From Escherichia coli (lineage in GTDB: Bacteria > Pseudomonadota > Gammaproteobacteria > Enterobacterales > Enterobacteriaceae): DNA of 676 nucleotides. Below, piece after piece: positions 1 through 666 of this stretch. The stretch is taken from NCBI RefSeq assembly GCF_003334385.1, contig NZ_QOWN01000152.1; one strand, given 5' to 3'. The stretch's first letter is position 1; the number at the start of each line of letters is the position of its first letter. A model generated the notes under the pieces. The model did no database searches. It was not told the origin of the DNA and saw only the letters and a list, made by a program, of their open reading frames with translations. The translations under genes were made by a program, and so were the position numbers.

Positions 1-42
1 GGGGCGCGGTGTCCAAAGCGATCGTTTTTTACGCCGGATGAT

Positions 43-50
43 CCCCCCCC
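43..50. repeat. C8 homopolymer (G8 on the minus strand), followed by GGG
   Basis: Read directly: eight consecutive C at 43-50, 9-16 nt 3' of the HNH stop codon. Confidence 0.5.
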
Positions 51-58
51 GGGTCGGG

Positions 59-424
59 TTACAGTCCGATGATGTCGTCCGCTCTGCCACTACCTCCGGA
101 CACCTCCGGCAGCGTCGGGTCCGGCATACCACCCGCCGCTTCACGAGCAGACTTTTGTCGATGGCATTCGGTACAGAGCGTCCAGAGATTCGTCTCCTCA
201 TTACCACCACCGAACTGAAGTGCAATTCGGTGATCGAGTTCACTGTCACAGAGGTCAACCACACGACCACAGATACAGCACTGCCCGGCGTCCCTCAGCC
301 AGATATGACGCTTGAGGGAAACACGTGCACTGCCACTGACACGACGCTGCTCCCCCTTCAGAATATTCACCCGTCGGGTATTCAGTGTTTTGATTCTGCT
401 CTGGAGTGTACGAAGCTGAGCCAT
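59..424 (-). CDS. HNH endonuclease (zinc-binding beta-beta-alpha-metal nuclease), 121 aa, complete
   Basis: Minus-strand ORF with ATG at 424-422 and TAA at 61-59. I verified codons by hand: Cys49 (278-280), Asp64-His65 (230-235), Cys84-Thr-Glu-Cys87-His88 (161-175). The protein has the full HNH signature: CxxC (C49/C52), catalytic DH (D64-H65), GGGNEETN with Asn75/Asn79, and a second CxxC-H (C84/C87/H88). An SD-like GGGGA sits 6 nt upstream of the start. Family assignment is motif-based, not from a search. Confidence 0.85.
   Translation of the reverse strand: MAQLRTLQSRIKTLNTRRVNILKGEQRRVSGSARVSLKRHIWLRDAGQCCICGRVVDLCDSELDHRIALQFGGGNEETNLWTLCTECHRQKSAREAAGGMPDPTLPEVSGGSGRADDIIGL
92..111. repeat. 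10-bp tandem direct repeat (ACCTCCGGAC / ACCTCCGGCA) in the HNH 3' tail
   Basis: Read directly: ACCTCCGG occurs at 92-99 and 102-109, each followed by 2 nt. On the minus strand it encodes PEVSGG in the low-complexity C-terminal tail. Confidence 0.45.
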
Positions 425-430
425 GTAAAA

Positions 431-435
431 TCCCC
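431..435 (-). promoter_or_regulatory. SD-like GGGGA for the HNH CDS
   Basis: The minus strand reads CGGGGA-TTTTAC-ATG; the G-rich element lies 6 nt upstream of the ATG at 424. Confidence 0.4.
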
Positions 436-453
436 GTCATATGGCAATCAGTA

Positions 454-458
454 AAGGA
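454..458 (+). promoter_or_regulatory. Shine-Dalgarno (AAGGA) for the CDS starting at 466
   Basis: AAGGA at 454-458 with a 7-nt AT-rich spacer to ATG 466. This supports ATG 466 over the GTG at 406 used by the ORF track. Confidence 0.55.
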
Positions 459-465
459 AATAAAT

Positions 466-666
466 ATGTCATCGAAAAACCGGACCCGCAGAACCACAAC
501 CCGCAATATCCGTTTCCCCAATCACATGATTGAACAGATCAACATCGCCCTTGAGCATAAAGGATCCGGTAACTTTTCAGCGTGGGTTATTGAAGCCTGC
601 AGGAGAAGGCTGGCAACAGATGCAACGCATCTGCGCCCGGCCAGCATGAAAAATAACGAGAAATGA
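466..666 (+). CDS. Small basic ribbon-helix-helix-like DNA-binding protein, DUF3950 (YlcI/YnfO-like) prophage family, 66 aa, complete
   Basis: ATG at 466 is preceded by AAGGA (454-458) with a 7-nt spacer; stop TGA at 664-666. Translation verified codon by codon: MSSKNRTRRTTTRNIRFPNHMIEQINIALEHKGSGNFSAWVIEACRRRLATDATHLRPASMKNNEK. It has an Arg/Thr-rich N-terminal arm, then a strand-like NIRFPNHM segment and a helix-like GSGNFSAWVIEA segment, which matches the Arc/Mnt-type RHH pattern (N-x-R-x-P ... NGRS-x-N-S). The resemblance to E. coli prophage YlcI/YnfO is from memory and is not search-verified. Confidence 0.8.
   Translation: MSSKNRTRRTTTRNIRFPNHMIEQINIALEHKGSGNFSAWVIEACRRRLATDATHLRPASMKNNEK
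617..633. repeat. Perfect 7-bp inverted repeat with 3-nt spacer (CAGATGC-AAC-GCATCTG)
   Basis: Read directly: 617-623 CAGATGC is the exact reverse complement of 627-633 GCATCTG. It lies inside the 3' end of the 466..666 CDS (codons ATDATHL), about 30 bp upstream of the putative downstream start. Its existence is certain; its function is unknown. Confidence 0.5.

What the first reader, a model, noticed from the sequence alone, without database searches (positions are those of the whole stretch)
43..53. C8 homopolymer (CCCCCCCCGGG) immediately 3' of the HNH stop
An 8-nt C/G homopolymer is at the length where slipped-strand mispairing becomes frequent in bacteria. It lies 9-16 nt beyond the HNH stop and could be in the 3' UTR, in the 3' end of an unseen upstream plus-strand gene, or in a regulatory region. 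It is also a common site of sequencing or assembly error. The CCCGGG core overlaps a small dyad.
Basis: seen in the sequence. Interest (0 to 1): 0.25.

Follow-up and report, generated by a model that had tools for sequence, protein, structure and literature searches.

The report
Conserved G-run in phage cos site
The C8 run is not a gene switch or an assembly glitch: it is the plus-strand view of a G-run that sits a fixed 34-35 bp upstream of the DNA-packaging cut site (cos) in HK97-type phages, always at least six G long, with extra length that drifts between strains, and it probably acts as an undescribed packaging signal like lambda's cosQ.

Summary
In detail: C8 at 43-50, GGG at 51-53, 9-16 nt past the HNH stop, against 0.07 such runs expected by chance. 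The window comes from an E. coli lambdoid (Stx-phage-type) prophage. On the minus strand the order is lysis genes, HNH, a 289-bp gap, TerS, then an HK97-class TerL. PhageTerm data published for a 95%-identical phage place the 10-nt 3' cohesive end at window -1..8, so the run (G8 in packaging orientation) lies 34 nt upstream of the inner nick. Run length does vary: C6-C13 across 74 sequences, and C8/C9/C10 in finished genomes >=99% identical to the window. No real ORF, promoter, terminator or Rfam RNA overlaps it. A search for the cos core alone found 64 distinct cos sites, and all 64 have a G-run >=6 (none has a C-run) ending 34-35 nt from the nick (63/64); chance matches gave 2/61. Across 13 lineages with diverged spacers, six G columns are invariant while DNA further upstream is at random-level identity. 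HK97, HK022, mEp235, Acinetobacter fEg-Aba01, Pseudomonas D3, Clostridium phi3626 and phiC31 carry a G-run or G-rich block at the same place. Best reading: a conserved upstream cos sub-element, possibly a cosQ-like termination signal, apparently undescribed. Its function is inferred, not shown.

The parts
44..49 (-). Invariant G6 core of the run (C on the + strand). In packaging orientation it lies 36-41 nt upstream of the inner (bottom-strand) cos nick.
   Evidence: Six columns at 2.0 bits across 13 lineages whose 28-nt spacers are <75% identical. 64/64 distinct cos sites have a G-run >=6 here.
43..43 (-). Nick-proximal edge of the run. It is G in the window, and T (A on the + strand) in many relatives.
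   Evidence: GATGATC... versus GATGATA... variants; column information 0.5 bits.
50..53 (-). Distal, length-variable end of the run (window 50) plus the flanking CCC (GGG on the + strand, 51-53). This is where length differences appear between relatives; the neighbouring run is G3 or G4 on the + strand.
   Evidence: Run lengths 6-13 and adjacent G3/G4. The distal column carries only 1.0 bit. The CCCGGG dyad is absent in other lineages.
9..42 (-). 34-nt spacer between the run and the inner nick. It contains ATCA (39-42), an A6 tract (T6 on the + strand, 25-30, itself length-variable), CGATCG (19-24) and GGACAC (9-14).
   Evidence: Sequence. Partly conserved columns (T.AA, CGATCG). T6/T7 variation.
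1..8 (-). Eight of the ten bases of the 3' cohesive end (CGCGCCCCCT in packaging orientation). The last two bases lie just left of the window (L001 5999-6000).
   Evidence: PhageTerm: cos CGCCCCCCCT with 3' cohesive ends at the genome end of the 95%-identical phage Lys8385Vzw (PMC7946995). Record end and start aligned to the window. Near-identical CGCCCCCCAT confirmed experimentally in fEg-Aba01 (PMC7354433).
59..424 (-). Packaging-associated HNH endonuclease gene, immediately upstream of cos.
   Evidence: RefSeq annotation WP_000057924.1. phrog_589 HNH endonuclease, E = 1.6e-44. Third-codon-position excess of variable sites, 16/16/40.
38..454 (+). Shadow ORF antisense to HNH that starts 5 nt before the run; not a gene.
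   Evidence: Synonymous/non-synonymous 56/279 against 197/138 in the HNH frame. Stops in 7 of 31 distinct sequences. ATG 38 is out of frame in 54 of 73 loci. The phrog_1487 match covers only residues 42-121.
466..666 (+). YlcI/YnfO (DUF3950) gene on the opposite strand. It is context only and not part of the cos element.
   Evidence: RefSeq annotation; phrog_949, E = 2.6e-33.

Best explanation
The C8 run is the plus-strand view of a G-run that belongs to the cos (cohesive-end) site of an HK97-class, HNH-assisted, 3'-overhang DNA-packaging module. In the direction in which DNA enters the capsid the order is: HNH gene, G-run, 34-35 bp spacer, staggered cut (10-nt 3' overhang CGCGCCCCCT), an A-tract plus CCC motif that resembles the mapped HK97 TerS site, then the TerS and TerL genes. 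Selection keeps at least six G on the packaging strand at a fixed distance from the nick. Any extra G beyond the core is free to expand and contract by replication slippage, which explains the strain-to-strain length differences. Inferred mechanism, not shown: like lambda cosQ, the run is read from the upstream side when the translocating motor reaches the end of a genome, and it helps arrest or position the TerL/HNH nuclease for the terminal cut.
For: Shown:
(1) Context. The gene order is lysis genes, HNH, a 289-bp gap, TerS, TerL, capsid, portal. TerL is a full-length homolog of HK97 TerL (23% identity, E = 2e-11).
(2) Cut position. PhageTerm gives 3' cohesive ends with cos CGCCCCCCCT at the end of Lys8385Vzw (PMC7946995), which aligns to window -1..8.
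(3) Unbiased test. A scan for GGACACCGCNCCCCC alone gave 64 distinct sites with the family's downstream signature. All 64 have a G-run >=6, none has a C-run >=6, and the run ends 34-35 nt from the nick in 63/64. Of 61 no-signature (chance) sites, 2 have such a run.
(4) Island of conservation. In 13 lineages with <75% identical spacers, six G columns are invariant. Mean pairwise identity is 0.26 at -80..-51 and 0.45 in the spacer.
(5) Independent lineages. HK97 and HK022 have G9 42 nt from the genome end. fEg-Aba01 has G6 at 45 nt, with an annotated cohesive end. mEp235 has G9CGGG about 35 nt before GGAC|CGCCGCC. D3 has GGGGTGGGGCGGG. phi3626 has GGGGAGGGGTAGGG in a 36%-GC region and phiC31 has GGGGGCGGGGCGG.
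(6) The run follows cos, not genes. The HNH stop is 9 nt away here but about 270 nt away in HK97.
(7) Length drift with a floor. Runs are 6-13 in this family and 7-11 in the HK97 lineage, never shorter.
Inferred: the cosQ-like role, from its position on the last-packaged side of the cut and from the matching geometry. Lambda GGGTCCT lies 35 bp from the bottom-strand nick (cosQ coordinates from memory), and the run here lies 34-35 bp from the bottom-strand nick. cosQ function is cited from PMC4856287.
Against: There is no experiment on this element. The HK97 papers I could read map only the downstream TerS site (+15 to +29) and say nothing about -32 to -41. The 64 sites are not phylogenetically independent. 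The 13 lineages share a selected nick-proximal motif, so part of the signal could be common descent of a compact cos module. In D3, phi3626 and phiC31 the block is interrupted and its distance from the end differs by several nt, so homology of function there is an extrapolation. I assumed that the phiC31 record ends at cos. Staphylococcus phage 3A has a C6 run, the opposite polarity, in its HNH-TerS gap, and its cut site is unknown to me. The portal gene of this particular prophage is annotated as frameshifted, so this copy may not be in use.
Confidence: 0.65

Rival explanations
1. Neutral, hypermutable homopolymer in a non-coding spacer, or a mosaic recombination joint at the edge of the cos module. 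It has no function of its own, and its length differences reflect slippage plus sequencing error.
For: Length varies freely with no multiple-of-3 pattern. The run sits exactly where similarity between lineages ends on the upstream side, as a module junction would. Many source assemblies are drafts, in which homopolymer errors occur.
Against: A neutral run would decay by point substitution. Instead six G columns are invariant across 13 lineages whose adjacent spacer is only 45% identical. Runs are never shorter than 6, are always G on the packaging strand (0/64 C-runs), and recur at the same distance in HK97, fEg-Aba01 and mEp235, whose spacers cannot be aligned to this one.
Confidence: 0.12
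2. The run is a cos sub-element that acts at initiation rather than termination. It would be a docking or recognition site for the HNH protein or a second TerL protomer, or a structural (rigid, A-form-prone) element that helps assemble the cutting complex. It may work as an inverted partner of the C-run inside the cohesive end.
For: G8 and the CGCGCCCCC of the cohesive end form an inverted repeat and pair in the MFE fold. HNH proteins of this class lack sequence specificity on their own and need terminase (PMC12967558), so an additional DNA cue is plausible. The conservation data fit equally well.
Against: HK97, HK022 and mEp235 have cohesive ends without a long C-run (CGCCGCCAAA / CGCCGCCTAG) yet keep G9, so the inverted-repeat relationship is not general. 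There are no binding data. The RNA fold is not significant (z = 0.24).
Confidence: 0.18
3. Phase-variable contingency switch: slippage in the run turns a gene or promoter on and off.
For: The run length is in the slippage-prone range and varies between strains. ATG 38 opens a 138-aa ORF across the run.
Against: That ORF is a shadow of HNH: syn/nonsyn 56/279, stops in 7 of 31 sequences, and the ATG out of frame in 54 of 73 loci. No promoter-like site overlaps the run. The run lies after the HNH stop and 274 bp before the TerS start. The same run exists where the neighbouring genes are different.
Confidence: 0.03
4. Sequencing or assembly artefact: the true length is constant and the apparent polymorphism is homopolymer error.
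For: Homopolymers are error-prone in 454, Ion Torrent and nanopore data. Some clonal groups are uniform.
Against: The run is present in every record, including the reference records of BP-4795 (G9), HK97 and HK022 (G9) and D3. Lengths span 6-13, far more than typical +/-1 errors. Groups of up to 8 loci with identical flanks agree exactly, which argues against random error dominating.
Confidence: 0.02

Closest known systems
cosQ of phage lambda and lambda-like phages (termination sub-site of cos)
   Same: Both are short conserved elements on the upstream, last-packaged side of the cos nicks and are not part of the TerS-binding side. Both are G-initial: lambda has GGGTCCT, 23 nt from the top-strand nick and 35 nt from the bottom-strand nick (coordinates from memory), while the run here is 34-35 nt from the bottom-strand nick. 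Several HK97-type lineages carry a lambda-like AATGATAA..ATTATCA palindrome just before the run, as lambda does before cosQ. In lambda, cosQ is needed to arrest packaging and nick the bottom strand (PMC4856287; PMC4669245).
   Different: The sequences differ: a homopolymer of 6-13 G against a fixed 7-bp GGGTCCT. The terminase class differs (HK97-type with HNH and a 10-nt 3' overhang, against lambda gpNu1/gpA with a 12-nt 5' overhang). Length polymorphism is tolerated here, whereas natural variation in lambda cosQ is 'not apparent' (PMC4669245). Function is untested here.
HK97 cos site as currently defined (cleavage site plus TerS site at +15 to +29)
   Same: The packaging class is the same: TerL homolog, adjacent HNH, and a 10-nt 3' overhang starting CGC preceded by GAC. 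Downstream there is an A/T-tract plus CCC(G) motif at +18 to +26, comparable to the HK97 TerS site. HK97 itself has the G9 run at -33 to -41.
   Different: The published HK97 description contains no upstream element. TerS and HNH of the two phages are not detectably similar by BLASTP. In this family, GTTAAC-centred repeats follow further downstream.
Homopolymeric contingency loci (phase-variable simple sequence repeats) of bacteria
   Same: A G/C homopolymer of slippage-prone length whose length differs between closely related strains.
   Different: No gene or promoter is controlled. There is a conserved minimum length and a fixed position relative to a DNA cleavage site.

Membership tests
HK97-class 3'-cos site (HNH-assisted terminase) | Large terminase of the HK97 class next to the site | tested here: met
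   TerL (L001 3548-5209) against HK97 gp2: 23% identity over about 490 aa, E = 2e-11; phrog_9 terminase large subunit.
HK97-class 3'-cos site (HNH-assisted terminase) | HNH endonuclease gene directly upstream of cos and of the terminase genes | tested here: met
   HNH at window 59-424 on the minus strand, then a 289-bp gap, then TerS.
HK97-class 3'-cos site (HNH-assisted terminase) | About 10-nt 3' protruding cohesive ends at a defined sequence | tested here: inconclusive
   Not measured for this prophage. PhageTerm in the 95%-identical Lys8385Vzw gives 3' ends with CGCCCCCCCT (PMC7946995). The window has CGCGCCCCCT at the homologous place. Near-identical ends were confirmed experimentally in fEg-Aba01.
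HK97-class 3'-cos site (HNH-assisted terminase) | TerS recognition site just downstream of the cut | not testable with these tools
   Only sequence resemblance: AAAAAATTCCCGTTT at +12..+26, against the HK97 site at +15..+29. It lies outside the window.
lambda cosQ | Lies upstream of the nicks, on the end of the genome packaged last | tested here: met
   The run is on the HNH side and TerS is on the other side of the cut.
lambda cosQ | Conserved 7-bp sequence GGGTCCT | tested here: not met
   The sequence here is G8 followed by ATCA; lambda has GGGTCCT. It is therefore not a member of cosQ in the strict sense.
lambda cosQ | Works with a lambda-type terminase that makes 12-nt 5' overhangs | tested here: not met
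   The terminase is HK97-class and the overhangs are 3'.
lambda cosQ | Required for packaging arrest and bottom-strand nicking at the downstream cos | not testable with these tools
   This needs genetics or biochemistry. Only the geometry (34-35 bp to the bottom-strand nick, against 35 bp in lambda) and the conservation support it.
Phase-variable homopolymer (contingency locus) | Repeat length varies between close relatives | tested here: met
   C6-C13; variation within identical flanks; C8/C9/C10 in finished genomes >=99% identical to the window.
Phase-variable homopolymer (contingency locus) | Repeat lies within a real ORF or a promoter, so that its length changes expression | tested here: not met
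   Shadow ORF only; no promoter-like site overlaps the run; it lies after the HNH stop.
Intrinsic terminator of the HNH gene | GC-rich hairpin followed by a U-run on the transcribed strand | tested here: not met
   No terminator-like sites in L001 5600-6700. On the HNH strand the run is followed by an A-run, not a U-run. Fold z-score 0.24.

The most novel reading that the evidence does not exclude
A run of at least six G (or a G-rich block) about 35 bp upstream of the bottom-strand nick is the general, so far undescribed, termination or 'stop-and-cut' signal of HK97-class HNH-assisted cos packaging machines, from E. coli, Acinetobacter and Pseudomonas to Clostridium and Streptomyces phages. 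It would be the functional counterpart of lambda cosQ, read by the translocating TerL/portal/HNH assembly rather than by TerS.
Probability: 0.35. Interest if true: 0.7.

Novelty: new variant of a known kind. Interest (0 to 1): 0.55.

Why it matters
HK97 is the current structural model for cos-type DNA packaging. Its published cos definition has a cleavage site and a downstream TerS site but no upstream element, and how the motor recognises the end of a genome is still argued from models. A strictly conserved, strand-specific G-run at a fixed distance upstream of the cut gives a concrete, cheap-to-test candidate for the missing cosQ-like signal. The existing plasmid substrate (-312 to +472) already contains it. 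The finding also has practical uses. First, it marks the cos site of the long-tailed Stx-converting prophages of pathogenic E. coli, so virion genome ends can be predicted from sequence. Second, it warns that length differences at this homopolymer between assemblies are expected natural or technical variation with no coding consequence.

Tried and rejected
(1) A plus-strand ORF across the run (38-454). Rejected as an antisense shadow of HNH. Its PHROG match (phrog_1487) covers only residues 42-121 and probably reflects mis-called ORFs.
(2) An ORF entering from outside the window. Only an out-of-frame minus-strand ORF (L001 5953-6270) that overlaps HNH crosses the run. A 34-aa plus-strand ORF ends just before it.
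(3) Terminator or promoter. None at the run.
(4) Structured RNA. No Rfam match at E <= 1, and the fold is not better than shuffles.
(5) Looking for intermediate relatives through TerS tblastn in the phage collection. Only >=92% or <40% identical hits were found.
(6) Uninformative records. Burkholderia vB_E264, Vibrio K275 and Staphylococcus 3A do not end at cos.
(7) Literature. No paper in the searchable library describes an upstream G element in HK97-type cos sites. Kala 2014 and Wieczorek 2002 are not held. The original HK97/HK022, D3, phiC31 and phi3626 genome papers could not be checked, so prior mention there cannot be excluded.
(8) G-quadruplex idea. A single G8 run cannot supply four G-tracts, and only phi3626 has a four-tract arrangement, so I did not pursue it.
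It is not conserved in other lineages.

Full report
OBSERVATION. Window 43-50 is C8 followed by GGG at 51-53. One such run is present against 0.07 expected from shuffles.

WHERE THE WINDOW COMES FROM. The window is 100% identical to E. coli DETEC-S792 chromosome 1508018-1508693. Related sequence occurs in 1464 of 5426 complete E. coli genomes, with a median of 2 copies per genome that has any, and in 83 phage records, mostly Stx-converting phages. On the minus strand the gene order is lysis genes, HNH, a 289-bp gap, TerS, TerL, major capsid and portal. A YlcI/YnfO (DUF3950) gene sits on the other strand. TerL is a full-length homolog of HK97 TerL (23% identity, E = 2e-11). TerS and HNH are too diverged from the HK97 proteins for BLASTP to detect. 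This is therefore a distant member of the HK97-type, HNH-assisted packaging class.

WHERE THE CUT IS. The record of phage Lys8385Vzw, which is 95% identical to the window, ends 2 nt left of window position 1 and starts with CTCACGCAGAG. Its authors report from PhageTerm that it is a cos phage with 3' cohesive ends and that the cos sequence CGCCCCCCCT lies at the genome end (PMC7946995). In the window's phage the homologous 10-mer is CGCGCCCCCT. Window 1-8 is the reverse complement of its first eight bases. The inner (bottom-strand) nick therefore falls between window 8 and 9, and the run, which is G8 in packaging orientation, ends 34 nt upstream of it. Acinetobacter phage fEg-Aba01 has an almost identical, experimentally confirmed end, GGACAC|CGCCCCCCAT (PMC7354433).

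IS THE LENGTH VARIABLE? Yes.
- In 70 IMG/VR loci plus reference loci the run is C6 to C13, the neighbouring G-run is 3 or 4, and the first base is C or A.
- It differs among loci with identical 150-300 bp flanks, although the largest clonal groups are uniform.
- In finished genomes >=99% identical to the window it reads C8, AC8, C9, C10 or AC7. Two strains differ only at this run across the whole 676 bp.
- The HK97 lineage behaves the same way: G7-G11 in 56 loci, with lengths 7, 8, 9 and 11 inside one flank haplotype.
I could not look at reads, so the share of this variation that is due to sequencing error is unknown.

DOES IT TOUCH A GENE OR A SIGNAL? No.
- The plus-strand ORF 38-454 that starts 5 nt before the run is a codon-for-codon antisense shadow of HNH. 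Substitutions are 197 synonymous / 138 non-synonymous in the HNH frame but 56 / 279 in the antisense frame. The antisense frame carries stops in 7 of 31 distinct sequences, and ATG 38 is out of frame in 54 of 73 loci.
- No promoter-like or terminator-like site overlaps the run.
- There is no Rfam match and no significant RNA fold.

WHAT IT IS. HK97 and HK022 have G9 followed by ATCA, 42 nt before their right genome ends (32 nt before the inner nick). The window's phage has G8 followed by ATCA, 44 nt before the end (34 nt before the inner nick). To test this without bias, I scanned the viral collection for the nick-proximal core GGACACCGCNCCCCC alone.
- Of 132 distinct sites, 64 carry the family's downstream signature (TCTCA...AAAAAAT.CCC).
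- All 64 have a G-run >=6 upstream and none has a C-run >=6. In 63 of 64 the run ends 34-35 nt from the nick. Run lengths are 6-13.
- Of 61 sites without any downstream signature (chance matches), 2 have such a run.
- When the 64 sites are reduced to 13 lineages whose 28-nt spacers are <75% identical, six G columns are invariant (2.0 bits each). Mean pairwise identity is 0.45 in the spacer and 0.26, the random level, at -80..-51.
- The genes upstream of the run differ between lineages. In HK97 the HNH stop is about 270 nt away. The run therefore follows the cut site, not a gene.
- More distant phages have a G-rich block at the same place: mEp235 G9CGGG; Pseudomonas D3 GGGGTGGGGCGGG, in a record that ends at the motif; Clostridium phi3626 GGGGAGGGGTAGGG in a 36%-GC region with an annotated 3' cohesive end; and phiC31 GGGGGCGGGGCGG.

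HOW IT PROBABLY WORKS. What is shown: a strand-specific G6 or longer core at a fixed distance upstream of the cos nick is under purifying selection, and its excess length drifts. What is inferred: its role. In HK97 the only mapped recognition site is the TerS site at +15..+29, downstream of the cut (PMC11331095). Reviews list no upstream element for HK97, whereas lambda needs the upstream element cosQ for termination (PMC7617512). [quoted passage not shown] Lambda's GGGTCCT lies 23 nt from the top-strand nick and 35 nt from the bottom-strand nick (the cosQ coordinates 48473-48479 are from my memory). The run here lies 34-35 nt from the bottom-strand nick. Several HK97-type lineages also carry a lambda-like AATGATAA..ATTATCA palindrome just before the run, as lambda does before cosQ. 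I therefore favour a cosQ-like role. A role at initiation, for example docking of HNH or of a second TerL protomer, is a serious rival. The G-run and the C-run of the cohesive end form an inverted repeat in this family, but not in HK97.

COMPARISON AND NOVELTY. It is not a member of cosQ: the sequence and the terminase class differ. It is also not a contingency locus: no gene is controlled. It is best described as a new variant of a known kind, namely an upstream cos sub-element in the HK97 class. I found no description of it in the searchable literature, but the older subscription papers on HK97/HK022, D3, phiC31 and phi3626 could not be read.

CAVEATS. The sites share ancestry. The function is untested. 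The distances in D3, phi3626 and phiC31 differ by several nt. I assumed that the phiC31 record ends at cos. Staphylococcus phage 3A shows a C6 run of the opposite polarity, with a cut site unknown to me. The portal gene of this prophage copy is annotated as frameshifted.

Noticed in passing
L001 5840-5968 (28-160 nt left of the window, between cos and the TerS start): Five or more copies of a GTTAAC-centred motif (CAGTTAACAT / ATGTTAACTG), in direct and inverted orientation and including a perfect 18-bp palindrome CAGTTAACATGTTAACTG. They could be additional TerS or host-factor binding sites, like lambda cosB.
   Followed up: no
window 25-30: A second homopolymer, T6 (A6 in packaging orientation, inside the spacer between the G-run and the nick), is also length-variable: T7 in strain EC2. 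An A-rich stretch follows the G block in HK97, fEg-Aba01, mEp235, D3 and phi3626 too (GGGTCAAAA-like).
   Followed up: partly
L198 (lambda 48440-48472) and L129, L145, L148, L162 upstream of their G-runs: Lambda has AGATGATAATCATTATCAC, a near-perfect match to the Fur-box consensus as I remember it, immediately before cosQ. Several HK97-type cos lineages carry a similar AATGATAA..ATTATCA palindrome immediately before the G-run. Its function is unknown.
   Followed up: no
window 38-454 (+): The antisense shadow ORF of HNH matches PHROG family phrog_1487 ('unknown function', E = 8e-52, residues 42-121). That family is probably built from mis-called antisense ORFs.
   Followed up: partly
window 43-50 with window 1-8: The G-run and the C-run of the cohesive end (CGCGCCCCC) form an inverted repeat 34 nt apart and pair with each other in the predicted fold. 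This holds for the CGCNCCCCC-type cos sites but not for HK97, HK022 or mEp235 (CGCCGCC).
   Followed up: partly
L001 1-1335: The portal gene of this prophage is annotated as frameshifted (pseudogene), so the DETEC-S792 copy may be defective even though its cos region is intact.
   Followed up: no
window 466-666 (+): The YlcI/YnfO (DUF3950) gene is transcribed against the direction of the surrounding late operon, only 41 nt from the HNH start. The only promoter-like site upstream of it lies inside HNH (window 336-364).
   Followed up: no
L082 end joined to L257 start (Staphylococcus phage 3A, HNH-TerS gap): In this 30%-GC region the gap contains ATGCCCCCCTGCCC, a C-rich block on the packaging strand, which is the opposite polarity to the G blocks seen elsewhere. 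I do not know the cut site of this phage.
   Followed up: no
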